A stretch of 64,000 nt of DNA from an uncultured bacterium (lineage in GTDB: Bacteria > Acidobacteriota > Thermoanaerobaculia > Multivoradales > JAHZIX01). The notes below the pieces were generated by a model. The model was not told where the DNA came from and searched no databases. It saw only the letters and a list, made by a program, of their open reading frames with translations. Below, in pieces: positions 21,125 through 41,188 of this stretch; the stretch's first letter is position 1, and each line of letters begins with the position of its first letter. The stretch spans positions 96,001 to 160,000 of the forward strand of contig CBDUPA010000012.1 in the NCBI GenBank assembly GCA_965368975.1, read 5' to 3'. Made by a program: the position numbers and the translations under genes.

Positions 21125-21133
21125 GGCGATTTG

Positions 21134-22234: not shown

Positions 22235-22237
22235 ACG

Positions 22238-25177: not shown

Positions 25178-27901
25178 GTGGTCGTATGTCTCTTGGAGAC
25201 AGTCGTTCGAAGAGCAGTGACAGCTGCTGCGATTCTGACGCTTGTCGTGGGACTGGGCTTACAGGCACAGTCAGGGTCTGCTAACGCCCCGAAAGGGGCC
25301 CAGTTTGTCTTCGTGATCGATGATTCTGGCAGCATGGGGCAGCCGGAACACGGGCTTACAGACCCCGATCGGCTGGCTGTGTTCGCGGTGCGTGCTCTAC
25401 TGGGTGTGCTCGACGACCGGGACTGGGCGACAGTTGTTCGTCTCAATGGCCCTCGCGAGGGTGAAGATCCGCTATCGCTGGCGCCTTTGGGAGATGCGCA
25501 CCGAACCCGGCTGATGGAGGTTCTGCAGCTGGACGCGGAACTGGCGCGATATGAGGGGGAGTACACGCCTTGCCGAAGGGCTCTACAGGCCGTCAAGCGG
25601 ATGCTCGAAGGGTCGGATAGGCAGAACATTTCCCAAGTCGTGATCTTCCTTTCGGATGGCAAGTGCACACCGGTAACGCAAGGGGAAGATCGTGTCCTTG
25701 ACTTTGCTGAAGGTTTGCGCTCGGCTCAGGGAGAGAATCCGCGCCTTCAGTTCTACTTTCTGCGATTCGAAGGGCAAGAGTACACTCCGGGGCTGGAGCA
25801 GCTGGCCGAGAACACCGGAGGTTCGGCGATCGAGGTCCGACAGGGGGATCCGACGCGGATCCTCTACACCTTTGCGCAAGCGCTGGCCCGCTCGCAGGGC
25901 TACGAACCTCTGATCCTCAGTCCGAGCGTGCGGCAGCTGCCGGCCTACCGGGGGGCCAACCGAGTCCGCTTGCTGGCAATTGCGCGCGGCGATCAGGGAG
26001 AGCCGTTGGCGGTGCGCGTCCGGCGTCGTCAAGGGGGCGGAGTCGATACGGTGCCGATCGAGCAGGGCACCCACAGATTCCCGGGGCAACAGGGGTATCG
26101 CTTCGCTTCGGTGCAGTATCGGCCGGTCGAGCAGCCGGTGGAGGTGGAGGTGGTCGGAGCCGGCGAGGATTGGGAGGTCGTTGCCTTGCCGGAATATCAC
26201 CTGGCGGTCAACCTGGCCTTGCGTCGTGGTGGCTGTGAGGAGGAAGGCGAGACCCTGGGTGGCGTCACGCCAGCCGGAAGCGGATTGTGTGCGGTGATCG
26301 AGCTAGTCAATGAGGAAGGGCGCGTGGTGGGCAAGGAGGTGACCACCGGGCAGTTACAGGCTTCCTTGCGTCAGACAGTCCCGGGTGGTTCCGAGCCTCG
26401 GCTGATTTCGGCAACGGAAGCTTCCTCGGATCTCGCCAGCTTCCGCTTGGATATACAAGGGCTCGAGAGCGGTCACCACGAGTTTCAGGGGCAGGTCCAG
26501 TTGGGGACCCAGGTTGACGATCCCCGAGTTCTGACGGGCACTGCGCGAACACTGCAAGCAGTAGATCTGGCGATCCGGCCGGTTCCGAGTGAGCTGCGAC
26601 TCGATCCAATCCAGCCCGGTGAGGTCAGCCGTCAGAGCCTGGAGATCCATGGCAACTTCGCGCCGTCGGAAGCCGTGGTCTCCTTGGAAGAGGGAGAGAA
26701 TCTGCCGAGCTGCGTGACCTTAAGCTTTGACGGCAAGGAGCTTGGAGAGACCATCTCGATTCGTCCAAAGCAGGGCTACTGGGTCGAATTTCGGGCGGCC
26801 AAAGCCTGCGGCGAGACGCAAGGTCGACAGGTCGATGCGCGCCTGCGCCTGGAGCTTGCGGGACTCGATTCGATTGCCATACCGGTAACCTTTCGCTTGG
26901 AGAACAACGCCCAACGCCGAGATCCGACAACAGTGGAATTGCGGGCAGGTACGACGAGAGAGGTCGATGTAGCAATCCCCGCGGCCTGGAATTCTTTCGA
27001 CGTACAAGCAACCGCCGCCGAGAATGCGCAGGGCGAAACCTATGAGTTGCTGCGCGCTGAGATTCTGAGCGAGCCTCCGATTCCCTCTGAAGACGGTGAA
27101 GCCTCAGGTCGCCAGCGAGTCGAGGGATTGACCGCTGAACAGGGACTGTCTCTGCAACTCGTAGCTTCGGGCTGTTGCAGGTCCGGGACCTACGCCCTCG
27201 ATGTCTACCTGTGGCCCAAGGTCGGTGCCACGACCATCGTACCGCTGGTCGTCGAAGTCGAGGCCAGCTGGTGGACCTGCTACGGCTCTTGGGTGCTCGC
27301 GGGGACCATCGGTCTCTTGGCTGGCTTGCTGGTGTTCTATGTCCTGAGCATGTTCAGTCATACCACCTTGCTCGACCGAGACCAGCTGAGCGCTCGTCTA
27401 GTGCCCTTACGCTGGCCTCGCCATCGCGGCGCACCGCAACCCGCCAGCAATCGCAGTAGTGACCGAGAAGAGGTCGAAGACATTGTGCACAGTGAAGTCT
27501 CTAGCCTGCAGCGGGTGCGGAGCTGGCTACGAGCCAATCCCCTGGTCTTTGGCTCGCCTGGGCGAGAGTACAGAGAGACGGCCGAACTCTTTTTGACCAC
27601 TGATCTCGGGCTAACCTCGATTTCCCTGGTATTGGAGCGGGATGTCGTCGACCGACTCCGGACGAGCGAGGAGATCGACACTTGGGAAGAGGGGAGGCTC
27701 TTCGCGCGCGCCGGCAATCCCGTCTCCTTCTTTGTCGTGCGCGGTCCGAGCAAGAAAGTTCAGCAGATGACTCCGGAAGGCTGGTTCGGCAAGGTCGATG
27801 ACCTGACTGTCGAGCAGGTTTCCAAAGGACAAAGATTCATTCGTCAGCTTTCCATCAAAGAGCGCAAAGAAGGCGCTGTGGCCGGGTGGGTTCTGGAATA
27901 G
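25178..27901 (+). CDS. Membrane-anchored von Willebrand factor A domain protein
   Basis: Signal peptide; MIDAS FVIDDSGSM / YTP / IFLSDG; beta-rich middle region; TM SWVLAGTIGLLAGLLVFYVLSMF; C-terminal tail. Confidence 0.85.
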   Translation: MVVCLLETVVRRAVTAAAILTLVVGLGLQAQSGSANAPKGAQFVFVIDDSGSMGQPEHGLTDPDRLAVFAVRALLGVLDDRDWATVVRLNGPREGEDPLSLAPLGDAHRTRLMEVLQLDAELARYEGEYTPCRRALQAVKRMLEGSDRQNISQVVIFLSDGKCTPVTQGEDRVLDFAEGLRSAQGENPRLQFYFLRFEGQEYTPGLEQLAENTGGSAIEVRQGDPTRILYTFAQALARSQGYEPLILSPSVRQLPAYRGANRVRLLAIARGDQGEPLAVRVRRRQGGGVDTVPIEQGTHRFPGQQGYRFASVQYRPVEQPVEVEVVGAGEDWEVVALPEYHLAVNLALRRGGCEEEGETLGGVTPAGSGLCAVIELVNEEGRVVGKEVTTGQLQASLRQTVPGGSEPRLISATEASSDLASFRLDIQGLESGHHEFQGQVQLGTQVDDPRVLTGTARTLQAVDLAIRPVPSELRLDPIQPGEVSRQSLEIHGNFAPSEAVVSLEEGENLPSCVTLSFDGKELGETISIRPKQGYWVEFRAAKACGETQGRQVDARLRLELAGLDSIAIPVTFRLENNAQRRDPTTVELRAGTTREVDVAIPAAWNSFDVQATAAENAQGETYELLRAEILSEPPIPSEDGEASGRQRVEGLTAEQGLSLQLVASGCCRSGTYALDVYLWPKVGATTIVPLVVEVEASWWTCYGSWVLAGTIGLLAGLLVFYVLSMFSHTTLLDRDQLSARLVPLRWPRHRGAPQPASNRSSDREEVEDIVHSEVSSLQRVRSWLRANPLVFGSPGREYRETAELFLTTDLGLTSISLVLERDVVDRLRTSEEIDTWEEGRLFARAGNPVSFFVVRGPSKKVQQMTPEGWFGKVDDLTVEQVSKGQRFIRQLSIKERKEGAVAGWVLE

Positions 27902-27947
27902 AGCTCGAGGCCGGTCCGAAAACAAAAGCAAAATTGCGAGGTTGAAC

Positions 27948-30900
27948 ATGGCCAGAGATCGTAAGTTGATCGTCGAAGAACTCCTGACCAAGCCCAGCGG
28001 CGTGTGTCCGATGCTGTTCGTTGGTATGGGAGGAGCGGGTTGCAGGATGGTGGAGCGGATCGCCGGTCATCTCCGAGGTCGACCGGATTATAAAGAACGC
28101 TTCAAAGATCTGGTCAAGTTCGCCATGATCGACAGCAATGTCAATGATCTGGAAGGGTATCGAGAAGTGGCCAATGCAACCTTCCTGATCAGTGACTTCG
28201 AGAAGGAGGAGTACGCCAATCTGGCCTCTGGCAAGAAGTTCCTGGAACCGCAGCAGTACTTTACACAGTGGGTGCCGTCGGACTATCGCTTCCGCTCCGG
28301 AGATACCTCGGGGGCTGGCCAGATTCGCATCGAATCTCGTCTGGGTGTTTACTACCAGATGAAGCACAAACAATTCGTGCCCAGATTCCGCAGTCTCTTG
28401 GAGAGTCTGAAGTCGCACGAGAACGGACATCGGAGGTTGGACTCCGACGAGATCCGGATCGTACTCTGCTATTCCGTCGCCGGCGGAACCGGCTCCGGTT
28501 GTCATCTGCCAGTGGCCTATATGTTGCGGGATCAGGCCGACGACCTGGGCAAGCCGACTTTGATCGGTGTTGCGGTGTTGCCGGCGGTCTTCGAGGACAA
28601 GGTCGGCGTCAATAAGGATGGTGTTTTTGCCAACGGTTATGCAGCTCTGAAGGAAACCGAGCATTTGATGAAGCTCGGTGCCCCGGATTCTCGGTTCTTT
28701 CCCGAGAAGGGGATCGAGTTTCACTACAACCCCGCCGATGAATCGAAGCGAACGGTTCACGCGCGTCCCTTCGACTTCCTTTATCTGATCGACAAACCCG
28801 AGTCGTTCAGCGTTCCCGAGCCGGTGGATGCTGCGGCGGACGGACTCTATCTGCAGTTCTTCTCGCCCCTCTACGGGGCCCAGCTCTCCGACTACGACAA
28901 CTACACGCAGTACCAGAGGTTCTTGGTACCGGAAGACTTCGAAGAGGGAGGCATTCCGGGCTTCTCGACCTTCTATGGCTCCTACGGTTGCGCAGTGCTC
29001 CTGGTGCCGGTTCCCGGCCTGGTGGAGTATTGCAGCCAGGCTGCCGCCCTGGCGTTGATTCGGGCCAGCTTCATGGGGGATATCCCAGCGGATCCGATGT
29101 ACGAGCCCTTGCGCATCGACAGCGACCGCTTCTATGAAGTCAAGGAGCGCGACGACGAGGATGCGCAGCTCTTCCAGGCTGCGGATATCCCCAGTCAGCC
29201 TCAGAAAGAGCGTCGCCGAAGGTTGTTCGATCGGCTTTTTGCCAAGCGGGTGCGCCTGCTGGCGGCGTGTGAGTACCGGGCTGACCGCGACGGCCGGTTC
29301 CGCGGCATCTTCCGGCACGGCCACTATCTCGGAACCATCCCGAAGCTCGACGGTAGCGCCGTCATGGACATGGAGCGGTTCGACGAAGAGGCCGAGCGCG
29401 AGCGCGAGCTGGTCGGTGGCAAGCTCAGCGTTTCGATCGGCGGCATCATCCTGCCCGCCTTGGTCGGACTGCCGGGGGACGACCCCGGACTCCTGCAACG
29501 GGCGCACCAAGCGATCAAGAACTTCAAGGTCGACAAGCCGCGTCGTGACATGCGGGTCAACGAACTACGAGCGCGCGGCGACGCGTGGCGGACGATGTTG
29601 AGGGATGAGGGGCGTCAACGCCTGCGCGATGGCTACAGCGATGGCACGGTGCAGGTGCCTGGCATGGAGAGCCTGGTGCAAATGGACTTCCTGCGCCGGG
29701 AGGCGGGAGAGGTCGAGCTGGCGGCCAAGCGCTACGCGGTGCTCTCTCTGCTCGACGCGGTGGATTGGGAACAAGCGCCGGAAGACGAGGCCGAGTCCAA
29801 CTTCGATGTCCAGGAGAAGAAGCCCACGGCCAAGGCCGACGATGCCTTGATCGAGCACGTAATCAACCAGGCTCGGGATCTGGCCTTCCGCGACATCCGC
29901 CGCGAGTTCCTGTCCCAATTGGGCGAGTTGCGCGAGGCGCTGGAGAGCATCGCCGACGAGATGCGGGAGCTGGAGCAGGGGTCGACCAACCTGGAGCGCG
30001 AGTACGGTCGTCGCCTGGAGCGCCTGCAGTTCCAGGGCGAGGAGTCGGCCAATCAGTACATCCTGGACGCCGAGGCGTTGCAAGGGGAAGACAATCGACG
30101 CTTCTGGGACTTCTACTTCGAGGACAAAATCGCAGCTCTGCCCGAGTTGTCGCTGAGCAATGCTCGCGTGCAACAAATCCTGAGTGACACCGTCATCGAG
30201 CTATCGCAGCGTACGGGCCGCAGCACGAGCACGTCACGCCTGGAGAAACTGTTCACCGCGTTGCGCAAGTATGCCCAGGACTTCCTCGACAAGCGGATCG
30301 GCGGTGATCGTCACTCACCGGACCTGGAACGTCGCGAAGGGTTGACGCTGTCGGATGCGCTGGAGCTGGAGATCACCTACCGAGCGCTCTATCGCAGCTA
30401 CGCCGAAGCGATCCAGGGGCAGGGGGACAAGGTCATTCGTCGCATTCTCTCCGAATACCGCGCCCTGCCCGACGAGAAGCAGATCGATTTCGCGGAGCCC
30501 AAGCACCAGGACTATCTGCGCGACAAGATCAAGCGGGTAGTGCAGGAGAAGGCATCCCTGCTCTGTGTCTACAACCACTCACGCGATCAGCATGGTGGCG
30601 TGCGGCCAAACCATATCTTCCTGGCCGCGATTGATGAGAACTTCAAGAACAGCAACATCGAACAGGCGCTGAAAGATGCCGACATCGATGATCTCAAGTG
30701 GGTGTCCGGCAGCTGGCACAACGCCAAAGAGATCGTCTTCTACCGCGCGGTGTTGAATGTTCCGCTTTACACCTTCGGTCGGCTCGACCAGATGAAGCAC
30801 CACTATGAAAGCTTCCGCAGTCTGAGGCGGCGCTCGAAGGTGCTGCACATCGACAAGAACTGGGAGGGTGACCAGCTCTGTGACCTGGATCCGGGCACGC

Positions 30901-31817
30901 TCAAAGAAGTGCATCGTCAACTAACCGTGCGCGACCAGATCATCAACTTCACCTCGCTGCTGAGCAGCAAGCATCCGCGCATCGATGAGAAGGGGGCTAC
31001 CTGCATCTTGCGTCGGCGCGGGCGCTACTATCTGCTGGATCCGACCCTCAGCAAGATACCCGATGAGCACGATCCTGGTTCGACCTTGTTGGGCGACGCC
31101 CTGGCCCGAGCCATCGAACGCTTGCCCGAGGTGCTCGATGCCGAGCGCGTGAACTTCAGCGAGTACCGGGATTCGCTGCACGGTGTACGCAATGGCATGG
31201 CCCCGTGGCTGCTGGGCAAGATCTGCAGGTTACCTTTCCAGTGGCGCCTGCAATACGAAGATTTGAGCAACCACTATGGGCATCAGCGTTCGATCGAGCA
31301 GCAAGAGATTCTGCGTGATCTGAAAAACTCCTACGAGAAGCTCAATGAAGCGCTGGACTCTCTGCTCGCGGAACTGCGCAATCGTCGACTCGAGAGTCGG
31401 ACCCGCAAGGAGGACTTCACGGTCTACGCTCGCCGCTTGACCGCCCAGCAGGCCAAGGATGCACTGGATCAGAGCATCAAGGTGCTGGCCAACTACAGCG
31501 AGGCCTGGAGCAAGGTCGAGGACAGCTCGCAGGTCCCGGATACCCCCGAGTCGTTCGTGGATCTCTTCCAGCCTCTGGACCATGGCAAGTTGCAGAGCAT
31601 GCTCGACAAGTTGCACAAGCCGATCCTTGATGACGATGATGACGATGAGGAAGGCGATGGCCCCGGCCCAGCCAAGCCCCCAGCGGAGCCGGTCAAGCGC
31701 CCAGCGGAGCCAGACAAGCCCTCAGCGGAGCCAGACAAAGACTCGGCGGAGCCAGACGAAGACTCTGCCACTGAAGAGCCTTCGGAACCAGATCCCACTG
31801 AAACCGAAGGGTCATGA
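27948..31817 (+). CDS. Tubulin/FtsZ-like GTPase (Tubulin_2 / FtsZ-like 1 family) with a long helical C-terminus
   Basis: FVGMGGAG (T1), GAGQIRIESR (T3), YSVAGGTGSG (signature loop), ANGYAALKE; GAGG RBS. Confidence 0.88.
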   Translation: MARDRKLIVEELLTKPSGVCPMLFVGMGGAGCRMVERIAGHLRGRPDYKERFKDLVKFAMIDSNVNDLEGYREVANATFLISDFEKEEYANLASGKKFLEPQQYFTQWVPSDYRFRSGDTSGAGQIRIESRLGVYYQMKHKQFVPRFRSLLESLKSHENGHRRLDSDEIRIVLCYSVAGGTGSGCHLPVAYMLRDQADDLGKPTLIGVAVLPAVFEDKVGVNKDGVFANGYAALKETEHLMKLGAPDSRFFPEKGIEFHYNPADESKRTVHARPFDFLYLIDKPESFSVPEPVDAAADGLYLQFFSPLYGAQLSDYDNYTQYQRFLVPEDFEEGGIPGFSTFYGSYGCAVLLVPVPGLVEYCSQAAALALIRASFMGDIPADPMYEPLRIDSDRFYEVKERDDEDAQLFQAADIPSQPQKERRRRLFDRLFAKRVRLLAACEYRADRDGRFRGIFRHGHYLGTIPKLDGSAVMDMERFDEEAERERELVGGKLSVSIGGIILPALVGLPGDDPGLLQRAHQAIKNFKVDKPRRDMRVNELRARGDAWRTMLRDEGRQRLRDGYSDGTVQVPGMESLVQMDFLRREAGEVELAAKRYAVLSLLDAVDWEQAPEDEAESNFDVQEKKPTAKADDALIEHVINQARDLAFRDIRREFLSQLGELREALESIADEMRELEQGSTNLEREYGRRLERLQFQGEESANQYILDAEALQGEDNRRFWDFYFEDKIAALPELSLSNARVQQILSDTVIELSQRTGRSTSTSRLEKLFTALRKYAQDFLDKRIGGDRHSPDLERREGLTLSDALELEITYRALYRSYAEAIQGQGDKVIRRILSEYRALPDEKQIDFAEPKHQDYLRDKIKRVVQEKASLLCVYNHSRDQHGGVRPNHIFLAAIDENFKNSNIEQALKDADIDDLKWVSGSWHNAKEIVFYRAVLNVPLYTFGRLDQMKHHYESFRSLRRRSKVLHIDKNWEGDQLCDLDPGTLKEVHRQLTVRDQIINFTSLLSSKHPRIDEKGATCILRRRGRYYLLDPTLSKIPDEHDPGSTLLGDALARAIERLPEVLDAERVNFSEYRDSLHGVRNGMAPWLLGKICRLPFQWRLQYEDLSNHYGHQRSIEQQEILRDLKNSYEKLNEALDSLLAELRNRRLESRTRKEDFTVYARRLTAQQAKDALDQSIKVLANYSEAWSKVEDSSQVPDTPESFVDLFQPLDHGKLQSMLDKLHKPILDDDDDDEEGDGPGPAKPPAEPVKRPAEPDKPSAEPDKDSAEPDEDSATEEPSEPDPTETEGS
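31681..31764 (+). repeat. 4 x 21-bp coding tandem repeat (AEPxKxx)
   Basis: C(A/G)GCGGAGCC units start at 31681, 31702, 31723 and 31744. Confidence 0.8.
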
Positions 31818-34800
31818 CCAACCTGGTGTATCCGGCTCCGGGTATCGTTGTGGGCGTTGGCCGCTTTGGGCTGGCGGTCCTCGAAAAGCTCGGCGAGGAT
31901 TGGCAACAGCTGAAGCTATCGGGGGCCGGGCCGTCGTGCGAGAACCTACGCCTGTTTTGGGTCCATCCAGAGCAGGACGACGAGGGCTGTTGGCGGGAAA
32001 TCGAGCTGCCCGAGCTGAACACCGCCAATTACAGTGAAGATGGCGACTGGCCGTCGATCGTGCTCGACTTCGTGCTCTTGCGCACCATGGGATTGATCCG
32101 CTATCGCCATGGCATCTACCAGGTGGCTTCGCCGCGCGATTGCGGCCCGGTGCGAACGGCCGATCTCGAGTATCCGGAGACCAAAGACAAAGAAGATCCT
32201 GAAGCAGAAGAAGCCAAGAAGGATCGCGAAGAAGATAAGCGACTGGTGCGCCGCCGCTTCTTCGACTGGCTCGACCTGGCTCCCGACCCCGTCGAGGCCG
32301 CGGAGCGACTGAAGAAGAAGGCCGAGCGTGAGCCGGTATTGCACCTCTTCATCTCTCCCTTGCTGCACCGGGTGCGGCAGGGCCACAGCCCGTGGATCTT
32401 GATGGCTGCGATCCTGCGCTGTAGTTGCTTGCGCGCCGGTCGAGACCCTTCGCCGTGGCGCTGGGTTCGCGAACAGGAGGCGCAAGGCAAGATCGACCAG
32501 GAGGCCATCCAGACGGTATGCGAGGACCGTGACAGGTTTCTCGACCGTTTCGCGCCAGCACCCCTGAAGCCCTCACCACAGCCCGAGGTCGATGAGGGGG
32601 AAGTCGAGGGGAGAAAGACGGACGTCTGGAAGTTCGAAGAGACGGAGATCGTCATTCCCAAGATCTTTCGGCCCCAGGAGGGAGATCCGGAGCCGCCGAT
32701 CGATACCTTTCACCTGCTGCGTGAGAACTGGCAGGTATCCGGCTGGGCGACCGATCTCGAGACGCAGAAACAGCAGGGTTTCAAACCGCTGCAGGTGAGC
32801 CATTTCCGCCTGGGTCTTTTTGACCACTGTCAACACCGGGAGTCGAGAGAGCCCGAGTTGACAAAGGCCTTCGAGAAGCGACTCAAGTGCACGTCCAGGC
32901 TCTTGCATCGGGGGCTGGTTCGGTTGTGGGTCGATCTCAAGCGCGAGCAGGTAGAAGAGCAGGCTCTCGCCACCGGTGAGCGCCGCCATCGCCTGCTCGA
33001 TGAAGCACTACAGCAAAGCTTGAAGATCCTGGAGAAGTTGGTCGTGGATCCGCTGAAGGACGCTCCCGGCAAGGAGAAAGAGGGCGAGTGCTTGAGCGAT
33101 CTCTTGCGCTGTCCGGTCGACTTGCCGGACCAGCCGACCCAGTTTCTGCGCAACCAGTGCTTCGATCCTGACTCGCGGTGGTTGCGGGACAGCGCCTTGG
33201 AACGACGCCTGGTAGCTCTCGGGCTGGGAGACCCGTGGCGCGCCGCGCCGCGACGGCGGGGATTGTTCCAGGAGGTGATCCTCGAGAAGCAAGCCGAGGG
33301 CGGCTGCGCTCCAGGCGAGAGCGATGATCGCCCCCGATGCACGGAGATCGCCAAAGAGCCCAAGTCCGCTGGCGAAGGCCGGGGTCGATTCCGCAAGCAG
33401 CTGAACCAGACGGTCCGAGAGTTGTTGGACTTTTCCTACCTGGGAAGGTACCGCGAGCGCTTGACTCGCACACCGCCACGTCTGACGGTCTTTGTCGTCG
33501 GTGACATGAGCGAGCCCTTTACGCGCATCAAGATGCAGCAAGTCCTCAAGGACGTTCACTCGGAACTGCTGCGGGCCTTCAGCTCCGTGTTCGAACTGAA
33601 CCGGGATGGCTTCGATCGTGCCTTGTCCGTCATGCCGATTCTCTGGATGCCGCATCCGGCGGATCCGTTCGGTGGTGAGGAGCCACTGAAGACACGCCTG
33701 GAGGAGGCGGTGATCATCGATGCGGTGCACGGTATTCGACGCTGGGTCGAGGCGGTGTTACCCGGTGCGCGGCGCCGGATCTCGCAGATTTTCATCAACA
33801 GCAGGGTCACGGACAACGCGGTCTTGAGCATGGACGACAGCGTCAACCAGACGCGCGACTTCCTATCCTTCCAACTGCGCAATGACCTATCGCGCGATGA
33901 CTGGCTGCGTCGGACCGCGGTGGGTCCGGGGGGCGACGACTACTTCGCCTCGTTCGCCTGCTGCGAGATCGAGTTCCCGGCGGAGAGGGCGCGCGAATAC
34001 CTGGCCAATCGCATCGCTCGCGACTGCTTGCGTCAGCTGCAGGTGGAAGCTGAATGGCGGGGGCGCGAGGCGGTCAAGGTACCCGATCCCTCATCCATGG
34101 AAGAGCTGGTCGGAGAGGCGAGTTCGCGTCTGCAGCAGGAGACGGAAAGGGAGGCGAAGGGTCTGACGGACGCCATCTGGAATGCCCTGCCGCAGGGCGA
34201 GAGCTCCCGGCGCTGCATGCCGCGCAAGGAGATCCTGAGCCACTTCTCGGAGCGTTTCGAAAGCCGACTGTGGGCGGACATCACGCGACTGTGGCGACAG
34301 CTGACCCAGCGTCGAGGTCACATGGATGACTTTGTCGATTCCTTGCGACACCAGATCTCCCGGCAGCTGCATGGTGCGCTGCCCGACATCCGGCGTCAGA
34401 GTGACGACGAGGTGTACCAGGCCAGTGGGCAAGGTATCCAGGCGGCACTCTCGCGCCTGCAGGAACGCCGCTGGCAAGCCTTCAAGCAGCTGCAGGAGGC
34501 GGAGGAAGAACGTCTCCAGGCCGAGGAGGCCTGCCAGCAGAATCAGCGGCCGAACCGTGGCAGGCTGTCGCGGGCCCGTCTGGCAGTCACGGAGGCAGCG
34601 AAAGCCAAGCCGGATTGTGGTCCGCAGCGCTTCGGTCTTCTCGCCTGGGGCCTGTTGGCTCCGATCACCGCGGTGTTGCCCGCTCGTTTGTTGGAGTCCG
34701 AACTGGGCTGGTGGGCGTTGCCTTTGGTGATTGTTTTGCTGATCGTATTGGCGGGTGTCTCGCTCTGGGCCTTGACGCGCCATCGGTATCGTCAGCTGCA

Positions 34801-35869
34801 GGCCGCGATCGAGACGATGGCATCGGCCGTTCATCGCATGGTGTCCGGCGGCAGTGACTCTAGCCTGGTGGCGGCCGGGGCGTCCTTGCGTTCCTTCCTG
34901 GAGACCCGCCTGCGCCTGACCGCGGCGCTGGCCCGGCGCGGCTTTTCGCTCCACGTATTCGAGCAAGCGGCGGTGGATGAAGCTCTGGGTCTGCGCTTGC
35001 GCGAGAGCGTCGACATCCAGCTGCACAAGATGATGCGCCGAGCCGAGAGCCTCAAGGTACGTCCCGGCGGAGCCAGTGGCAACGAGCGCGATGATCTGCG
35101 AGATCTCTTTGTGCGGCGCGCCGGAGAACGCGTCGAGAAGCTGATCGATCCCGACCACCTGCTCGAGTACTACCACACCCGCGTGCGTCCGGACGACGTA
35201 CCGGTGCAGGAGTTCATCGAGCAGGTCGGTGGTCTCCAAGATTGGCGCCGAACCGCGTGCCTGTCCGATTCCACGGCGGTCATGGCATGGGGACAGGAAC
35301 TCTTCACTACCCTGGTCGACAAACCGATCACGGAACTCGACTACTTCACCGAGGCGGTGGGGGAGCAGTTGCGGCGATTCGTCCTGCGCAATTACTCGAA
35401 TATCGGTTTCGGGGCCAAGTTCCTGGGCTACGAAGGGCTGGATCCGGATGGCATCCGCCTGGTCGCCGATGCTTCCCTGGTGGCCGACCAGGCCTTGCTG
35501 CATGCCTATGCCTGGGCCGTGGAGCAGCAGGAAGACCATGCCCGTCGCAACCGTGAGGTGAGTCGCGCGGCGCGCACGCTGGAGACGATCGCGGCCAAGG
35601 TCCGACCCAATGCCGCCTACATGCTCTCCTTGGTCCAGGGCGTGCGAGCCCACAGCGTACACAACCTGAAGCGCTTCGAGTCGTTCCATGATCGACCCGA
35701 GGGTCCGGACTCGGACGCGATCCACTACCTGACGGGCTATGAAGAGAAAGCCAAAGAGTTTTACCAGTGGATCAGCGCCGAGGATGCCGCGCCGCGCGCA
35801 CGGCAGGACGAAAATACTACGACTGCCAGCTCTGGGGAGATAGAAGATCATGGACCCGACGTGGATTGA
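31814..35869 (+). CDS. Degenerate tubulin-like protein with coiled coils and two TM helices
   Basis: N-terminal GIVVGVGRFGLAVL resembles the T1 loop; VFVVGDMSEP sits where GGTGSG is expected; hydrophobic pair at about 34630-34780; 4-nt overlap with the upstream gene. Confidence 0.55.
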   Translation: MTNLVYPAPGIVVGVGRFGLAVLEKLGEDWQQLKLSGAGPSCENLRLFWVHPEQDDEGCWREIELPELNTANYSEDGDWPSIVLDFVLLRTMGLIRYRHGIYQVASPRDCGPVRTADLEYPETKDKEDPEAEEAKKDREEDKRLVRRRFFDWLDLAPDPVEAAERLKKKAEREPVLHLFISPLLHRVRQGHSPWILMAAILRCSCLRAGRDPSPWRWVREQEAQGKIDQEAIQTVCEDRDRFLDRFAPAPLKPSPQPEVDEGEVEGRKTDVWKFEETEIVIPKIFRPQEGDPEPPIDTFHLLRENWQVSGWATDLETQKQQGFKPLQVSHFRLGLFDHCQHRESREPELTKAFEKRLKCTSRLLHRGLVRLWVDLKREQVEEQALATGERRHRLLDEALQQSLKILEKLVVDPLKDAPGKEKEGECLSDLLRCPVDLPDQPTQFLRNQCFDPDSRWLRDSALERRLVALGLGDPWRAAPRRRGLFQEVILEKQAEGGCAPGESDDRPRCTEIAKEPKSAGEGRGRFRKQLNQTVRELLDFSYLGRYRERLTRTPPRLTVFVVGDMSEPFTRIKMQQVLKDVHSELLRAFSSVFELNRDGFDRALSVMPILWMPHPADPFGGEEPLKTRLEEAVIIDAVHGIRRWVEAVLPGARRRISQIFINSRVTDNAVLSMDDSVNQTRDFLSFQLRNDLSRDDWLRRTAVGPGGDDYFASFACCEIEFPAERAREYLANRIARDCLRQLQVEAEWRGREAVKVPDPSSMEELVGEASSRLQQETEREAKGLTDAIWNALPQGESSRRCMPRKEILSHFSERFESRLWADITRLWRQLTQRRGHMDDFVDSLRHQISRQLHGALPDIRRQSDDEVYQASGQGIQAALSRLQERRWQAFKQLQEAEEERLQAEEACQQNQRPNRGRLSRARLAVTEAAKAKPDCGPQRFGLLAWGLLAPITAVLPARLLESELGWWALPLVIVLLIVLAGVSLWALTRHRYRQLQAAIETMASAVHRMVSGGSDSSLVAAGASLRSFLETRLRLTAALARRGFSLHVFEQAAVDEALGLRLRESVDIQLHKMMRRAESLKVRPGGASGNERDDLRDLFVRRAGERVEKLIDPDHLLEYYHTRVRPDDVPVQEFIEQVGGLQDWRRTACLSDSTAVMAWGQELFTTLVDKPITELDYFTEAVGEQLRRFVLRNYSNIGFGAKFLGYEGLDPDGIRLVADASLVADQALLHAYAWAVEQQEDHARRNREVSRAARTLETIAAKVRPNAAYMLSLVQGVRAHSVHNLKRFESFHDRPEGPDSDAIHYLTGYEEKAKEFYQWISAEDAAPRARQDENTTTASSGEIEDHGPDVD

Positions 35870-38800
35870 TGTTGCCTGGCAGGTGATCTGGCAGGCCATT
35901 GCCGGCGTCTTGGTCTGGCTCGATAGCCAGTCGCTCTATGTGATCCTCGGCTGTGTGGGCGGCCTGCTGAGCTTTGTCTATGGTTTGGCATATGGCCTGC
36001 AATGGCGGCTCGTCAAGTTTCTCGAGCCGCGACCGGAACAGACAGCGCCGCTGGGACGTTGGGAGGCCATGTCTTCCCTCTTGGCACCGGTGACGGTCGT
36101 ATTCTTCGTGCTGGAGGGCATCACCCGCTCGCTGCATCGCCGGGTGCGAGGTTCGAAGGAACCAGACTGGAAGGTCAAGCACTCGAGTTCCGCCAAGAAC
36201 CATGGCAAGCCGATCTTGATCGCGACCTTGGGGCCGACCTTTCTGCTCGCCGGTGTCTTCACTGCTGTGGTCTACTGGTTGGCCCGTCTCGGCGAGCCTC
36301 TGTTCGCCGAAGCGTTCTCTCATGCGGGTCCATATCCTTTCTGGGAGTCCAAGCTGCTCAGTGCCTTGTTGGTCCTCGAAGCTCCGCCAGACATCTTCCC
36401 GTTGGCGAGCCATCCCAAGGTATCGCTGGTCCTGAGCTTGCTCTTCTGGACAGCTCTCTGGTGGACGTGCGGCAATCTGCTGCGAGGCTTCGTCTATCGA
36501 ACCGACTTGCAGCGCAACCTGGCGGGCCGCCGCGATACAGCCTTGCCGCTGTGGACCTCCTGGTTCGGGGTCAAGAAGCTGACCGAGGCCGGTGAGGCCT
36601 ACCGGGGTTGGGCCGCCTGGCTGGTGACGGCGGTCATCCTGCTGACCGTCGGTGCTGGCATGACGCTGAACCCGGCTCCCGGCTCTACCACTGCCGGTGT
36701 TGTTGATGGCCTGGAGCCAGCAGTCCAGGTTTCGCCGTCCGCGCTCGCCGTCGCCTTGATCCTCGCCTTGTCTTGGGTGCTGCACCTGCACCTCAAAGGC
36801 AAGCATTTTGAGCCGGAGCCCAAGTCCCGAAGGGAAGCGATCGTGCCGTCGGAAGGCCTGCCGGGATGGCAGCGTGTCGTGGCCAAGTTGGAGGAACGGT
36901 ATCGCCTGACGCCGCCGGAGTTTCGCGGCGAGCGACCGTTGCTGGCCCCCGCGTTCACCGTACCTACAACGGCTCTCCAGGTGCTCTCGCCCCTGGTTCC
37001 TGAACTCCTGCAGGAGCCGGAGCAGAGTCCGGAAATCCGGCAGACACCGCCGCTGAACGTGATGCAGGCGAAGGTGCTCGAAAGTCTTTCGCTGTTTGGC
37101 TATGTCCACCTGCAGCCCCCCACCACCGGCGATGTCCTGGAACTTTCGAGTAGTGGTCCAGGAGCGGTCGAGGACCGTAGTGGGTTATCTGAGCGCCACC
37201 AGATCGTGCTGGCCCCCGAGGGCAGTGGCAAGACGACTCTGGCCATACTCGCCGCCGCCAACAATACCCTCGTGCATGCCCGAGCGACGCTGCTGATCAC
37301 GCGGTCGGGGGAACAAGCGGACGAACTCCAGCTCAAGTTCCAGGAGGTCGTCGAGCCCTCCACGGTGCGCTGGAACCTGCGGTTTCGCCGCATGGGCCAA
37401 GACTTCGCGTCAGACCTCAGTCGCGACATCGTGCCCGACATCGTGATCTCGAGCCTGCACGAACTCACCACCGGCATGCTCGACAACGCGGAGGTCTATG
37501 CCGACTTCCTGCGCAACGTCGGGCTCGTGGTAGTGGACGATGTAGAGTCCTTCGCCGGAGCCGTCGAGATTCACGCCCAGCTGGCCTTCCGCCGTCTCCG
37601 CCTGCTCTTCCGGCAAGTTTCCGAGGTCGAACAGCTCGGTGAGGCCAACGCACCGTTGATGCTGATCCTGGGCGTCGATTCGATGAAAGAAATGGCTGCC
37701 TGGGCCAAGAGTCTGTGCGGTGTCCAGGCCGTGGTGCGGAACTTTCCCGCCGCCATGGCGGAGACCGACCAGTCGAAAGACAGCGCATCAGAGGGCAGTC
37801 CATCAGGGGACAGGTCATCAGGGGACAGTACATCAGGGGATAGAGCCTCCGAGGAGGGCGCGCGACAGCAGAAATGGCTTCCGTTCAGCGCCCTGCAAAG
37901 CCACCAGGGGCGGCAACTGACCGTGCCGGAGGTCGTCGCCGCCTGTGAAGCCGCTGGCGTGCCCTGGTGCTATCGACCCTGCGGTGACGGTCGTCGGCAT
38001 CGAGGCCGTGGTCCGCTACTCCTGGAGCAGGAGCCCGAGCACGCCACGGCATCGCCACGGGATGCCTGTGTGATCTTCTTGGATGGTCGATGGAGCGAGG
38101 TACGCAGAGAGCTGCAGCGGAGTCCGTGGGCCGGGTACCAATCGAGACGGCAAGAGGTCATCTTCCTCGTCCTGGTCGATCCCGAGGAGGCGCTGGCCTG
38201 CGGCGAACTCGACCCGGACCTGGGTTTCGAGGCCTCGCACGATCACGTGCGTCCAGACTTGGCGGAGGAACTCGTGACCTTGCCGCTGCCGGTCGTGCGC
38301 CCGCCATCGAGCCACGTCTTGCAGTCTCACCTGCTCTCCGATCTCGTGCAGAGTTGGTTCGAAGTCAAGGACCTGGTGGATACCTTCGAAGTCCCCGTGG
38401 CGCATCGTCTACGCTATTTGCAGTCGCAGGGCATGTTGCTGATGGAGGAGCGAAGCGACGTCCAGGCCGCACTGAAGGAGTACGAAGCCAAAGTTTACGT
38501 ACGTGCCCTTGCAGCCTCCCTGGCCATCGACGAGGCCGGAGGCAGCGCCAACGACGGCATCATCGAGTATCCGCCCCTGGACAAGGTGCGACAAGTCGAG
38601 CTGGTGGCCAGGTCGGCGGTGACGATCCGCAATCGAGCCGATCACACGCTGCTGCGCACGGTCGAGGCCGATAGCGCGGCCTGGATCTACTACCCGGGGC
38701 GCATCTTCGAGGACTCTCGCGGCCGCTTCGTCGTGGTCGGCCGAGTCCGTCGAGGAGATCGACTGGGTGCCATCGAGGTCGAGCCCGTATTGCACGACAA

Positions 38801-39797
38801 CTTTTCCAGTCCACGGCGTTGGTTCGAGCGCATCGAGCCGGAGACCTCGAGCCGAGAGAAACTCTCCGTCGCCGCCGACTCCGACTCGTCGGCGCACTGC
38901 GAGGCGCACGGCTATGCTCTGTATGAAAAGGAACCGGTTCTGCTGGGGCGGCACAGCATCGAACTCGGCCTGGTCGCGATCGAACTGAAGCTACATTCGT
39001 TGGCGGTCTTCCGACTCGACAGGTCGACCTTCGAGGTGCGCGCGCGGGAGATTCACGCGCAGCGAGCGCAGAGCGAGTTTCCGCCGGCAGAACTGCAGAC
39101 AATCGCGGTCTCGTTGCACCCCAATCCCCAGGAATCGAGCCCATCTGCTCCGAAGCTGCACCTGGCGGCAGCGCGCTTGCTCACCGCGCTGTTGCGCTTT
39201 GTGCTGCCGCTGATCTATCGCAACGTCCAGGATCGCTTGGAGGTCGCGTTGATCTTCCCGGGGGAGGACGGCGACAAGAGGTTCACAGCACCGTGGGATT
39301 CGGAGCTGGAGTCCGAGGCGGCCCTCTACCTCTTCGACCTGCACCAGGGGGGAGATGGCACTGCGCGGGCTCTGTACCGGGATGGCGTCGAGCTACCGCT
39401 GCGCTTCTGCCGACACTTCCTGGCCACGGACGTGGACGTGGAGCGGATCTTCCGGCTCCATGGGCACGAGAGTAGCTTGCAGGAGGTCAAGGTAACCCAT
39501 GGAGGTCCCGAGGCGGTTGGGAACGATGCTGAGCCAGAGGACGAGATACTGGAAGCGTGGCCTTGGCAAGAGATCCGTGCTGGGTTGCTGGCCTGGTTGG
39601 ATAGTCGTCTTCATCCGGAGTCCGTCTCCTGGGCCGAGGCCGAAGCGTCGGCTGCTGAGGAGGTTACGGAGGATACTGAACTAGAGGCAGAAGACCTGGA
39701 GGCAAGTGCCCCGGGCGATCACGCACAGACCGCTGAAAGTTCCACCGTCGAAGAAGCCACCGCCGAAGAGTCCACTGCTGAGACGGAAGAGGCTTGA
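35850..39797 (+). CDS. Multi-TM protein fused to a degenerate YprA/MrfA-like SF2 helicase
   Basis: About 6-7 N-terminal hydrophobic helices; APEGSGKT; VVVDDVESFAG...AFRRL; YYPGRIF; LYLFDLHQGGDG (DUF1998-like, without the Cys cluster). Confidence 0.7.
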   Translation: MDPTWIDVAWQVIWQAIAGVLVWLDSQSLYVILGCVGGLLSFVYGLAYGLQWRLVKFLEPRPEQTAPLGRWEAMSSLLAPVTVVFFVLEGITRSLHRRVRGSKEPDWKVKHSSSAKNHGKPILIATLGPTFLLAGVFTAVVYWLARLGEPLFAEAFSHAGPYPFWESKLLSALLVLEAPPDIFPLASHPKVSLVLSLLFWTALWWTCGNLLRGFVYRTDLQRNLAGRRDTALPLWTSWFGVKKLTEAGEAYRGWAAWLVTAVILLTVGAGMTLNPAPGSTTAGVVDGLEPAVQVSPSALAVALILALSWVLHLHLKGKHFEPEPKSRREAIVPSEGLPGWQRVVAKLEERYRLTPPEFRGERPLLAPAFTVPTTALQVLSPLVPELLQEPEQSPEIRQTPPLNVMQAKVLESLSLFGYVHLQPPTTGDVLELSSSGPGAVEDRSGLSERHQIVLAPEGSGKTTLAILAAANNTLVHARATLLITRSGEQADELQLKFQEVVEPSTVRWNLRFRRMGQDFASDLSRDIVPDIVISSLHELTTGMLDNAEVYADFLRNVGLVVVDDVESFAGAVEIHAQLAFRRLRLLFRQVSEVEQLGEANAPLMLILGVDSMKEMAAWAKSLCGVQAVVRNFPAAMAETDQSKDSASEGSPSGDRSSGDSTSGDRASEEGARQQKWLPFSALQSHQGRQLTVPEVVAACEAAGVPWCYRPCGDGRRHRGRGPLLLEQEPEHATASPRDACVIFLDGRWSEVRRELQRSPWAGYQSRRQEVIFLVLVDPEEALACGELDPDLGFEASHDHVRPDLAEELVTLPLPVVRPPSSHVLQSHLLSDLVQSWFEVKDLVDTFEVPVAHRLRYLQSQGMLLMEERSDVQAALKEYEAKVYVRALAASLAIDEAGGSANDGIIEYPPLDKVRQVELVARSAVTIRNRADHTLLRTVEADSAAWIYYPGRIFEDSRGRFVVVGRVRRGDRLGAIEVEPVLHDNFSSPRRWFERIEPETSSREKLSVAADSDSSAHCEAHGYALYEKEPVLLGRHSIELGLVAIELKLHSLAVFRLDRSTFEVRAREIHAQRAQSEFPPAELQTIAVSLHPNPQESSPSAPKLHLAAARLLTALLRFVLPLIYRNVQDRLEVALIFPGEDGDKRFTAPWDSELESEAALYLFDLHQGGDGTARALYRDGVELPLRFCRHFLATDVDVERIFRLHGHESSLQEVKVTHGGPEAVGNDAEPEDEILEAWPWQEIRAGLLAWLDSRLHPESVSWAEAEASAAEEVTEDTELEAEDLEASAPGDHAQTAESSTVEEATAEESTAETEEA
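37786..37845 (+). repeat. 4 x 15-bp coding tandem repeat (SGDxx linker)
   Basis: CATCAG(A/G)GG units at 37786, 37801, 37816 and 37831. Confidence 0.7.
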
Positions 39798-40623: not shown

Positions 40624-40633
40624 TATCTGATTC

Positions 40634-41188
40634 CTATGAAATGACGGTGATAAGTCCAACCAGTAGGCCACCAACACCGACGAACAAGCTGGCAGAGGAA
40701 ATCCATTTTTCACGCTTGCGCTGTGCAGATTGCTCTTGCATCTGTTGTTTTAGATGCTGTGTTAGGGGCTGCAAGAGATGGTTATTGCTCGGCAGATTCT
40801 CGTCCAGACGTTTGAGGTGTAATTGAATGTCTTTGGGCAATCCTTGAAACGGCTCTTCTGACTCCAGCTGTTTTAGGAAATCTTCGATTCTGTCTAGGAA
40901 GGTCGAAGGAGTCTCATCCATCTCACCTGTGATCACTCTGCTGAGAAGACTCTCGAGGGAGTGCTTGAGGCCGACGGTATTAACGTCATGTGTCCGGGCA
41001 AGGCTTCGAACTCGAGACCAGGTCACATCTTCGTGACTCAATGCTTTGGTGAGATCTTCTCTGAAGTTTGCCAACTCTTTGGGGCGTTCGTTGCGTTCCT
41101 TCACTTCTGAGAGAAAAGCGACCATACCAACAGAACTGCCGATAGCAGTCCCGAGCAAGACGAGAATTAGGATATAGGTAATTTCCAT
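40634..41188 (-). CDS. Hypothetical protein with N- and C-terminal TM helices
   Basis: 184-aa ORF with hydrophobic termini and a helical middle; AT-rich. Confidence 0.6.
   Translation of the reverse strand: MEITYILILVLLGTAIGSSVGMVAFLSEVKERNERPKELANFREDLTKALSHEDVTWSRVRSLARTHDVNTVGLKHSLESLLSRVITGEMDETPSTFLDRIEDFLKQLESEEPFQGLPKDIQLHLKRLDENLPSNNHLLQPLTQHLKQQMQEQSAQRKREKWISSASLFVGVGGLLVGLITVIS

What the first reader, a model, noticed from the sequence alone, without database searches (positions are those of the whole stretch)
25178..39797. vWA + tubulin-like GTPase + degenerate tubulin + membrane-anchored degenerate YprA helicase operon
Seen: four very large co-oriented genes, the last three overlapping: an exported vWA protein with intact MIDAS and a TM anchor, a ~1290-aa tubulin-like protein with GTP-binding loops, a 1351-aa paralog-like protein with lost signature and 2 TMs, and a multi-TM SF2 helicase-like protein. 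Known: FtsZ-like 1 (Tubulin_2) loci with vWA partners and inactive paralogs were described computationally as putative membrane-remodelling systems; their function is essentially untested. I do not recognise the helicase partner from those descriptions. Inference: a trans-envelope sensing and polymerising machine. Its position next to a defence operon suggests an anti-phage or inter-cell conflict role.
Basis: partly seen in the sequence, partly recalled or inferred. Interest (0 to 1): 0.78.

Follow-up and report, generated by a model that had tools for sequence, protein, structure and literature searches.

The report
Tubulin-like pair with membrane helicase cassette
Four large neighbouring genes encode a surface receptor-like protein, a tubulin-like GTPase, its inactive membrane-bound twin and a membrane-embedded DNA-helicase-like motor; they travel together between bacterial phyla as one unit whose job is still unknown.

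Summary
Window 25178-39797 carries four co-oriented ORFs (907, 1291, 1351 and 1315 aa). They encode an exported vWA/MIDAS protein with a TM anchor, an FtsZl1/Tubulin_2 GTPase, a TM-hairpin protein and a polytopic membrane protein. The cytoplasmic part of the fourth protein folds like the DUF1998 helicase MrfA (Foldseek E 5e-23). The third protein is a degenerate tubulin by a two-step profile link (E 4.5e-43, then 3.9e-10; controls 0.58-0.92).

The genes are a true unit. Among 39 related loci, the tubulin gene was present in 35 of 35 assessable loci, the helicase in 33 of 33 and the vWA gene in 28 of 32, always in the same order. No flanking gene of the window is shared except one small ORF. 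The helicase and the pseudo-tubulin occur in the same 5 of 40 related genomes.

The cassette occurs in Thermoanaerobaculia and Bradymonadales/Myxococcota. Its GC3 is lower than that of its neighbours.

The adjacency to a defence operon is not conserved in other genomes. The window's copy also lacks a fifth gene, a predicted lipoprotein present in 26 of 27 assessable relatives.

Function is inferred only. I read it as an envelope-spanning, GTPase-controlled machine that handles DNA at the membrane. It is a new variant of the computationally described, untested FtsZl1-vWA systems.

The parts
25178..27901 (+). Gene 1. Exported vWA/MIDAS protein: signal-like N-terminus, vWA domain at about 44-215, a beta-rich middle, a TM at 706-724 and a conserved cytoplasmic tail of about 180 aa.
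   Evidence: Pfam VWA_2 E 1.4e-5 and VWA E 1.1e-3, both just under their cut-offs. MIDAS DDSGS and the SDG motif are conserved in 29 orthologues. Hydropathy. Present in 28 of 32 assessable related loci.
27942..31817 (+). Gene 2. FtsZl1/Tubulin_2 GTPase (domain 25-373) with a long helical extension and an acidic, proline-rich tail; no TM.
   Evidence: PF13809 E 8.8e-41. T1 and T4 motifs are invariant. It is the most conserved gene of the cassette, 45-80% identity. Present in 35 of 35 assessable loci.
31814..35869 (+). Gene 3. Degenerate Tubulin_2 paralogue (pseudo-tubulin). N-terminal strand and G-box at 8-30; an insert of about 490 aa where T2-H3 would lie; core at 545-760 with DMSEPF in place of GGTGSG; coiled coil; TM hairpin at 942-987; conserved C-terminal domain at 1000-1351.
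   Evidence: hhalign: core vs the insert-less relatives E 4.5e-43; those relatives vs the Tubulin_2 domain E 3.9e-10, prob 96.7%; controls E 0.58-0.92. Weak Pfam Tubulin_2 match in 14 of 36 orthologues. The nearest named ESM Atlas clusters are Tubulin_2 at score 0.82, a lead only. Foldseek on the AF2 model found nothing at E<=0.001.
35850..39797 (+). Gene 4. Polytopic membrane domain (about 1-320) fused to an MrfA/YprA-like SF2 ATPase with a C-terminal MZB-like domain. Walker A is kept, Walker B is DDVE, SAT is replaced, and there is no conserved four-Cys cluster.
   Evidence: AF2 pLDDT 82.6. Foldseek MrfA 6znp_A E 5.1e-23; Hel308, Brr2 and PolQ at about 1e-8. Motif conservation in a 47-sequence alignment. 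Present in 33 of 33 assessable loci. Found in the same 5 of 40 relatives as gene 3.
39802..40713 (-). Loosely associated small membrane protein (303 aa, one TM, no Pfam family). It is convergent with gene 4 and ends 5 nt after it.
   Evidence: Relatives lie within 10 kb of the cassette in 12 of 39 loci, either downstream on the opposite strand or upstream between a small vWA paralogue and gene 1. GC3 is 0.55 against 0.68-0.77 for the cassette.

Best explanation
The region is one horizontally mobile module that builds a complex at and across the cytoplasmic membrane.

Shown:
- Domain identities of the four proteins.
- Predicted topology.
- Strict co-occurrence and gene order.
- Overlapping stop and start codons of genes 2-4.
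- A pseudo-tubulin gene directly downstream of a Tubulin_2 gene in 8 of 8 more distant Myxococcota loci as well.

Inferred mechanism:
1. The integrin-like gene-1 protein binds a ligand through its periplasmic vWA/MIDAS domain and relays this through its single TM helix and conserved cytoplasmic tail.
2. The GTP-binding FtsZl1 protein pairs with its GTP-dead, hairpin-anchored paralogue. This would resemble an active/inactive tubulin pair or a membrane tether. The pair forms a GTP-controlled assembly on the inner face of the membrane.
3. That assembly positions or gates the membrane-embedded MrfA-type ATPase, which engages single-stranded or entering DNA next to the membrane.

The role I think most likely is interception of foreign DNA at the envelope, that is, a conflict system. 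In most relatives a periplasmic lipoprotein, missing here, completes the machine.

Roughly 0.9 that this is one functional unit with these domains. Roughly 0.35-0.4 for the mechanism and role as stated.
For: Unit:
- 35/35, 33/33 and 28/32 assessable loci keep genes 2, 4 and 1 next to gene 3 in the same order.
- Identical presence and absence of genes 3 and 4 in 40 relatives, 5 with both and 35 with neither.
- No shared flanking genes.
- Overlaps of 4 nt and 20 nt.

Pairing:
- A pseudo-tubulin lies directly downstream of Tubulin_2 in 8 of 8 distant loci.
- Homology chain E 4.5e-43 and 3.9e-10, with clean controls.

DNA motor:
- Whole-length MrfA-like fold.
- Walker A, the DD Walker B and the post-Walker-B 'F.G....A..LRRL' stretch are shared with the neighbouring DrmA-like helicase.
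- More distant versions keep the TM helices plus a P-loop and VDD.

Membrane and envelope:
- TM segments in three of the four proteins.
- A lipobox in the fifth gene of relatives.

Mobility and accessory nature:
- 5 of 40 relatives carry it.
- It occurs in two phyla.
- GC3 is 0.68-0.77 against 0.79-0.89 in neighbouring genes.
- The Acidobacteriota copies form one starred clade nested among Bradymonadales copies (rooted on long branches, so tentative).
Against: - No experiment exists, and no RNA data were listed.
- Defence context is not conserved: 123 + 9 flanking ORFs show no recurrent defence family. There is no convincing PADLOC match, and no relatives were found in viral contigs.
- The helicase motifs are atypical: DDVE instead of DExH, SAT lost, no obvious motif VI arginine pair after the last RecA2 strand, and no Zn cluster (and my reading of the model). 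Unwinding activity, and even DNA binding, are therefore uncertain.
- FtsZl1 proteins lack recognisable T6-H7 elements, so filament formation is uncertain (paper passages).
- The window's copy lacks the lipoprotein gene found in 26 of 27 relatives. It may be a reduced or impaired version.
- The vWA gene is missing next to the cassette in 4 of 32 assessable loci.
Confidence: 0.38

Rival explanations
1. A membrane-remodelling, adhesion or cytoskeletal machine with no role in DNA. This is the original FtsZl1 hypothesis. The vWA receptor anchors the cell surface to an internal FtsZl1 scaffold. The helicase-like protein is a degenerate ATPase used as a mechanical or regulatory membrane subunit.
For: Three of the four proteins are membrane-anchored, and relatives add a lipoprotein. 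FtsZl1-vWA operons were proposed to remodel membranes (paper passages). The helicase motifs are eroded. The flanks of other loci are housekeeping genes. The cassette is frequent in Bradymonadales, which I recall to be predatory bacteria; that is not from a call.
Against: The complete MrfA architecture, including the MZB-like domain, is retained at high model confidence. Walker A and Walker B are nearly invariant across 47 sequences. That is hard to explain for a mere scaffold.
Confidence: 0.27
2. A DNA traffic device for uptake, export or cell-to-cell transfer. The polytopic domain of protein 4 forms a conduit and its MrfA-like motor pulls single-stranded DNA through it. This would be analogous in logic to the ComEC/ComFA pair (recalled). 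The vWA receptor and the tubulin pair place or trigger it.
For: A fusion of 5-6 TM helices to an SF2 motor is kept in 76 family members and in more distant versions. The extracytoplasmic vWA and the lipoprotein are partners. No defence context was found.
Against: No competence, conjugation or secretion genes recur next to the cassette among the ORFs scanned. The membrane domain has no Pfam family. The patchy distribution (5 of 40 relatives) is unusual for a core uptake pathway.
Confidence: 0.15
3. The four genes are not one machine, or the window's copy is a decaying remnant.
For: The window lacks the fifth gene and the C-terminal helicase extension seen in many relatives. The complex-prediction job gave no verdict, so it offers nothing either way.
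Against: All four ORFs are intact and full length. Their order is conserved across two phyla. Genes 3 and 4 co-occur perfectly. The closest relatives (L008-L010) also lack the extension.
Confidence: 0.04

Closest known systems
FtsZl1 (Tubulin_2)-vWA operons of Makarova & Koonin 2010 (PMC2875224; passages read)
   Same: An FtsZl1 protein with an N-terminal GTPase domain plus a coiled-coil/helical extension. An adjacent vWA protein with intact MIDAS and membrane anchoring. Patchy distribution. Function untested: no experimental paper was found with the terms.
   Different: A fixed four- to five-gene cassette with a membrane-anchored, GTP-dead paralogue and a membrane-embedded MrfA-like helicase. 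'Helicase' does not occur in the paper's main text. The partners listed there (protein kinases, P-loop GTPases, OmpA-like proteins) were not seen in this cassette. The paper's supplementary operon tables could not be read.
MrfA/YprA DUF1998 helicase (PDB 6znp, 6znq, 6zns)
   Same: Best structural match over nearly the whole cytoplasmic part (E 5.1e-23). Walker A is shared, as is the YprA-type stretch after Walker B.
   Different: Fused to 5-6 TM helices. DDVE instead of DExH. SAT replaced by G-x-D-S-M. No Pfam MZB match and no conserved Cys cluster. No sequence-level PDB hit to MrfA even with a profile.
DISARM DrmA/DrmB and other defence helicases with DUF1998 (recalled; a DISARM-like operon lies at 41341-57933)
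   Same: Same broad helicase lineage. Weak RecA1 alignment to the neighbouring 2165-aa DEAD+MZB protein (E 0.0012).
   Different: No methylase or SNF2 partner inside the cassette. No PADLOC match. Not a recent duplicate of the neighbour. The adjacency is not conserved elsewhere.
Active/inactive tubulin pairs and membrane tethers of FtsZ (alpha/beta-tubulin, BtubA/B, FtsA/ZipA; recalled, used as an analogy only)
   Same: A GTP-binding family member is always encoded next to a paralogue that has lost the nucleotide signature. The paralogue carries the membrane anchor.
   Different: No evidence here of a heterodimer or a filament. The FtsZl1 family lacks recognisable T7/C-terminal domain elements.
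Zorya-type envelope-sensing defence (recalled, analogy only)
   Same: The logic of a membrane complex with a long cytoplasmic helical part coupled to an SF2-type DNA enzyme.
   Different: No MotAB-like stator. The components are different. No homology was tested or claimed.

Membership tests
FtsZl1 / Tubulin_2 (PF13809), protein 2 | Profile match above the curated cut-off | tested here: met
   140.8 bits against a cut-off of 27; E 8.8e-41; profile positions 1-355 of 356.
FtsZl1 / Tubulin_2 (PF13809), protein 2 | GTP-binding loops T1 (GGxG) and T4 (GGTGSG) intact | tested here: met
   FVGMGGAGC and AGGTGSG are invariant or nearly so in 33 sequences.
FtsZl1 / Tubulin_2 (PF13809), protein 2 | GTP-dependent polymerisation | not testable with these tools
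   Needs biochemistry. The family lacks recognisable T6-H7 elements (paper passage).
FtsZl1-vWA operon (Makarova & Koonin 2010) | vWA gene with intact MIDAS in the same predicted operon | tested here: met
   Gene 1 lies 40 nt upstream. DDSGS is conserved. Present in 28 of 32 assessable loci.
FtsZl1-vWA operon (Makarova & Koonin 2010) | Frequent partners: Ser/Thr kinase, divergent P-loop GTPase, OmpA-like protein | tested here: not met
   None among the four proteins. One flanking kinase was seen in one related locus only.
Tubulin/FtsZ superfamily, protein 3 | Sequence homology to a tubulin-family GTPase domain | tested here: met
   Transitive link: P0003 core vs insert-less relatives E 4.5e-43; those vs the Tubulin_2 domain prob 96.7%, E 3.9e-10 over 254 columns. 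Reversed, five shuffled and unrelated controls gave E 0.58-0.92. The direct comparison is weak.
Tubulin/FtsZ superfamily, protein 3 | Nucleotide-binding signature | tested here: not met
   GDMSEPF replaces GGTGSG and GVGRFG replaces GGxG. It is therefore filed as an inactive paralogue.
Tubulin/FtsZ superfamily, protein 3 | Tubulin fold of a 3D model | tested here: inconclusive
   AF2 pLDDT 76.3. Foldseek PDB gave nothing at E<=0.001; TubZ ranked 6th (E 1.7) and FtsZ 36th. The VIA-align libraries were not available.
MrfA/YprA DUF1998 helicase, protein 4 | Two RecA-like domains plus accessory and C-terminal domains arranged as in MrfA | tested here: met
   6znp_A E 5.1e-23, 963 columns, TM-score 0.45/0.57. 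The next families score about 1e-8.
MrfA/YprA DUF1998 helicase, protein 4 | DExH Walker B and SAT motif III | tested here: not met
   DDVE and G-x-D-S-M, both conserved in 47 sequences.
MrfA/YprA DUF1998 helicase, protein 4 | MZB (PF09369) Zn-binding four-Cys cluster | tested here: not met
   No PF09369 hit. No conserved Cys cluster in the C-terminal third. The neighbouring 2165-aa helicase does hit MZB.
Known anti-phage defence systems (PADLOC-DB v2) | Match to a defence protein model | tested here: not met
   Best hit is LeoBC at E 3.8e-5 in a coiled-coil/TM stretch of protein 3. The others are at E 5.6e-4 or weaker.
Known anti-phage defence systems (PADLOC-DB v2) | Recurrent location in defence islands | tested here: not met
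   Of 123 flanking ORFs, no PADLOC family is found in more than 2. Pfam shows housekeeping and varied genes. 10 of the 19 larger flanking ORFs were not scanned.

The most novel reading that the evidence does not exclude
This is the first recognisable output module for the enigmatic FtsZl1 branch of the tubulin superfamily. An active/inactive tubulin-like pair would couple an integrin-like surface receptor to a membrane-embedded helicase. That would make a new kind of envelope-spanning machine that senses events outside the cell and acts on DNA at the membrane, either for immunity or for DNA traffic.
Probability: 0.25. Interest if true: 0.85.

Novelty: new variant of a known kind. Interest (0 to 1): 0.62.

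Why it matters
FtsZl1/Tubulin_2 proteins have been known from sequence since 2010. No experimental function turned up in my literature searches.

This cassette gives the family a fixed and testable set of partners:
- an inactive, membrane-anchored paralogue, found beside the tubulin gene in all 35 assessable cassette loci and in 8 of 8 more distant loci checked in Myxococcota;
- a membrane-embedded MrfA-like ATPase.

If the pair forms a heterodimer or filament that controls a DNA motor, this would be a new use of tubulin-family proteins in bacteria and a new architecture for SF2 helicases.

The module also occurs in records named after cultured species (Lujinxingia vulgaris strain TMQ2; Bradymonas sediminis), so genetics should be possible.

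Tried and rejected
- Direct BLASTP and hhalign of protein 3 against protein 2 gave only short, weak, colinear pieces. The link needed the insert-less relatives.
- A profile of the helicase family against PDB sequences gave only a P-loop match to Brr2 at E 0.013. PDB sequence searches with A2, P0002 and P0001 found nothing useful.
- Foldseek of the protein-3 model against PDB and BFVD gave no hit at E<=0.001. The pdb_via and pdb_via_wide libraries were not on the machine.
- ESM Atlas search with the C-terminal domain of protein 3 gave no usable hit.
- The 25 distant relatives of protein 3 have no Pfam Tubulin_2 hit at E<=0.01.
- Complex prediction on the tubulin domain and the pseudo-tubulin N-terminus of locus L072 gave no verdict (score 0.01). 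The window's own pair exceeds the size limit.
- No RNA holder was listed for the stretch.
- No relatives of genes 3 or 4 were found in viral contigs.
- No tRNA gene was found in the window.
- The PADLOC LeoBC hit of protein 3 was rejected as coiled-coil/TM composition.
- The idea that protein 4 is a recent duplicate of the neighbouring DrmA-like helicase was rejected: only E 0.0012 over RecA1.
- ORFs on the opposite strand inside the cassette appear 'conserved', but they were treated as shadows of the real genes.
Full report
WHAT IS THERE

The window is GC-rich (0.65). At 25178-39797 it carries four co-oriented ORFs of 907, 1291, 1351 and 1315 aa. Genes 2/3 overlap by 4 nt and genes 3/4 by 20 nt. 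Gene 2 most likely starts at the ATG at 27948, behind a GAGG.

Upstream lie housekeeping genes (TGT, SecD, SecF), a transglutaminase-TPR gene and a split LanB-type dehydratase.

Downstream, on the other strand, lie:
- two small low-GC membrane-protein genes;
- a UvrD-type helicase;
- a 2165-aa DEAD+Helicase_C+MZB+REase protein;
- a 1671-aa Eco57I-type methylase;
- an SNF2 protein.

I call this downstream set DISARM-like from its domain content only. It was not checked with PADLOC models.

THE FOUR PROTEINS

Protein 1
- Its vWA domain scores just under the Pfam cut-offs (VWA_2 E 1.4e-5).
- The DDSGS MIDAS motif is conserved in 29 orthologues.
- It has a signal-like N-terminus, one TM helix at 706-724 and a conserved cytoplasmic tail of about 180 aa.
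- This is an integrin-like layout.

Protein 2
- It is a clear FtsZl1/Tubulin_2 protein (E 8.8e-41) with invariant T1 and T4 GTP-binding motifs.
- It has a long helical extension, as described for the family (paper passages).

Protein 4
- It has five to six hydrophobic helices in its first ~320 residues and a DEAD-domain match (E 2.7e-7).
- An AF2 model of residues 330-1315, built on a 47-sequence alignment, is confident (pLDDT 82.6, pTM 0.85).
- Its best PDB match by far is the DUF1998 helicase MrfA (6znp_A, E 5.1e-23, 963 aligned columns). Hel308, Brr2 and Pol-theta helicases follow at about 1e-8.
- The family keeps Walker A (APEGxGKT) and an invariant Asp-Asp Walker B (DDVE rather than DExH).
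- It has G-x-D-S-M where SAT should be, and no conserved cysteine cluster. It has no Pfam MZB hit.
Whether the protein still unwinds DNA cannot be told from sequence.
- It is not a recent copy of the neighbouring DrmA-like helicase (E 0.0012 over RecA1). However, it shares that lineage's stretch after Walker B.

Protein 3
This was the hard case.
- Direct comparisons with protein 2 gave only weak, colinear pieces.
- The Pfam Tubulin_2 model matches weakly in 14 of 36 orthologues (best E 0.006).
- The nearest named ESM Atlas clusters are Tubulin_2 at 0.82, a lead only.
- Foldseek on the AF2 model (pLDDT 76.3) found nothing at E<=0.001, with TubZ at rank 6.

The decisive step came from an exhaustive profile search.
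- It found 114 proteins at E<=0.001. Among them were shorter relatives (about 620-1130 aa) that lack the ~490-aa insert of protein 3.
- The core of protein 3 (545-760) matches the N-terminal profile of these relatives at E 4.5e-43. Its first 60 residues match at E 2.5e-7.
- That insert-less profile matches a diverse Tubulin_2-domain alignment over 254 columns, covering almost the whole domain, with probability 96.7% and E 3.9e-10.
- The same comparison against the reversed alignment, five column-shuffled alignments and an unrelated alpha/beta domain gave E 0.58-0.92.
- The alignment puts DMSEPF/DLGEP where the tubulin signature GGTGSG lies.

Protein 3 is therefore an inactive Tubulin_2 paralogue. 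It has a large insert in place of the T2-H3 region, followed by a coiled coil, a TM hairpin (942-987) and a conserved C-terminal domain of unknown fold.

IS IT A UNIT?

- Protein 3 has relatives in 5 of 40 related genomes. All five loci keep the four genes in order.
- A scan of one genome per species found 39 loci. With simple flank-length rules for what can be assessed, gene 2 is present in 35 of 35 loci, gene 4 in 33 of 33 and gene 1 in 28 of 32.
- The four misses of gene 1 (L027, L029, L034, L044) are all Myxococcota/Bradymonadales records.
- Two loci carry an unrelated ~7-kb insertion inside the cassette.
- The reciprocal search with the helicase part hit the same 5 of 40 genomes, only at the cassette.
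- None of the window's other genes is shared with any of the 39 loci, apart from the small ORF at 39802-40713 (12 loci, in two different positions) and its neighbour (2 loci).
- The pairing is older than the cassette. In 8 of 8 more distant Myxococcota loci, an insert-less pseudo-tubulin sits directly downstream of a Tubulin_2 gene. A vWA gene lies upstream in 3 of them, and a TM-plus-P-loop 'VDD' protein lies downstream in 2.

DISTRIBUTION AND ORIGIN

- Named records are Thermoanaerobaculia/Acidobacteriota and Bradymonadales/Myxococcota (Lujinxingia, Persicimonas, Bradymonas), plus one MAG labelled Pseudomonadota.
- Tubulin_2 itself is rare in the window's phylum: 10 of 201 sampled genomes, G000 included.
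- The cassette's GC3 (0.68-0.77) is below that of neighbouring genes (0.79-0.89).
- In a quick tree of the tubulin domain (41 rows), the 23 Acidobacteriota rows plus the Pseudomonadota-labelled row form one starred clade nested among Bradymonadales rows. The tree is rooted on the short-system tubulins. This suggests transfer from Myxococcota, but the root sits on long branches, so the direction is tentative.
- No relatives were found in viral contigs.

- Most relatives have a fifth gene directly after the helicase gene. It encodes a ~350-450-aa protein with a signal peptide and an LAGGC lipobox, so it is a predicted lipoprotein. It is present in 26 of 27 assessable loci.
- The window lacks this gene. 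The convergent small ORF ends 5 nt after gene 4. A family HMM finds no copy among all six-frame ORFs of at least 80 aa in the 99.3%-complete genome.
- Fifteen of 27 assessable loci also have a ~300-aa C-terminal extension on the helicase. It is absent here and in the three closest relatives.
- Some loci add a small vWA paralogue upstream.

DEFENCE OR NOT?

For:
- patchy distribution, cross-phylum spread and lower GC3;
- a helicase lineage that I recall as common in defence systems;
- the DISARM-like neighbour in this genome.

Against:
- The neighbourhood is not conserved.
- 123 flanking ORFs of up to 700 aa show no Pfam or PADLOC family that recurs in a defence-like way. TPR, TonB receptor, HlyD, CTP synthase, urocanase, TatC and similar genes dominate.
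- Nine of the 19 larger flanking ORFs are a TopoIII-RecQ fusion, a kinase-TPR protein, a CHAT-FGE protein, a PKS and unknowns.
- The four proteins match no PADLOC model convincingly.

The defence idea survives only as one of several readings.

MECHANISM (inferred)

A periplasmic MIDAS receptor and, usually, a lipoprotein would report to a membrane-tethered active/inactive FtsZl1 pair. That pair would control a membrane-embedded MrfA-type ATPase acting on DNA at the inner face of the membrane.

- I put about 0.38 on this with a conflict role.
- About 0.27 on a DNA-independent membrane or adhesion machine.
- About 0.15 on DNA traffic.
- About 0.04 on 'not a unit or decaying'.
- The rest is unassigned.

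COMPARISON WITH PRINT

- Makarova & Koonin 2010 described FtsZl1 and its vWA, kinase, GTPase and OmpA partners, and proposed membrane remodelling (passages). 'Helicase' does not occur in the main text. The supplements are closed.
- A 2023 survey treats Tubulin_2 proteins only as a divergent outgroup (passages).
- Searches for FtsZl1 spellings and PF13809 (15 papers), for DUF1998 with tubulin (2 unrelated papers) and for tubulin-like, defence system, vWA and phage (64 papers, 15 listed) showed no description of this cassette and no experiment on the family.

I therefore rate it a new variant of a known, computationally defined kind.

Noticed in passing
window 41341-57933 (- strand): A DISARM-like operon by Pfam content: SNF2 helicase (974 aa), Eco57I/MmeI-type methylase (1671 aa), a 2165-aa DEAD+Helicase_C+MZB+REase_MTES_1575 fusion and a UvrD-type helicase (721 aa). 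It was not checked against PADLOC models.
   Followed up: partly
window 21131-25003 (+ strand): Split LanB-type lantibiotic dehydratase: the C-terminal-domain protein (367 aa) comes first, followed by the N-terminal-domain protein (921 aa). It lies directly upstream of the cassette. No precursor peptide was looked for.
   Followed up: no
window 39802-41188 (- strand): Two small membrane-protein genes (303 and 184 aa) with much lower GC3 (0.55 and 0.52) than anything around them. Relatives of the first lie near the cassette in 12 of 39 loci, in two different positions. Relatives of the second lie near it in 2 loci.
   Followed up: partly
related loci, e.g. L008:17690-18976, L026:17721-18923, L011:18731-19831: A fifth cassette gene encoding a predicted lipoprotein (LAGGC lipobox), present in 26 of 27 assessable relatives. 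It is absent from the window and was not found in its genome.
   Followed up: yes
G000 contig C6, 214500-234499 (L047): A second Tubulin_2 gene (1256 aa, E 4.8e-58) sits in a different neighbourhood: Hsp70-like, DUF4350/GIFT-like and transglutaminase-like proteins, and several large proteins without a Pfam family. No pseudo-tubulin or helicase of the cassette type is present. A 477-aa ORF next to it weakly matches the C-terminal extension of the long helicase homologues (E 2e-4).
   Followed up: partly
L041:3111-10001 and L034:10551-17693: Unrelated insertions of about 7 kb split the cassette, between genes 2 and 3 in L041 and between genes 3 and 4 in L034. They are possibly mobile elements. 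Their content was not identified.
   Followed up: partly
G181 contig C154 (L050, L058) and G079 contig C47 (L057, L059): Other Acidobacteriota genomes carry two Tubulin_2-matching genes a few kb apart, one strong and one weaker. These are possibly further active/diverged pairs.
   Followed up: no
proteins P0216, P0219, P0220, P0222, P0224: Relatives of protein 3 of 1800-2050 aa, in which the match starts only around residue 800-1000. They carry a large unexplored N-terminal addition, possibly a fusion.
   Followed up: no
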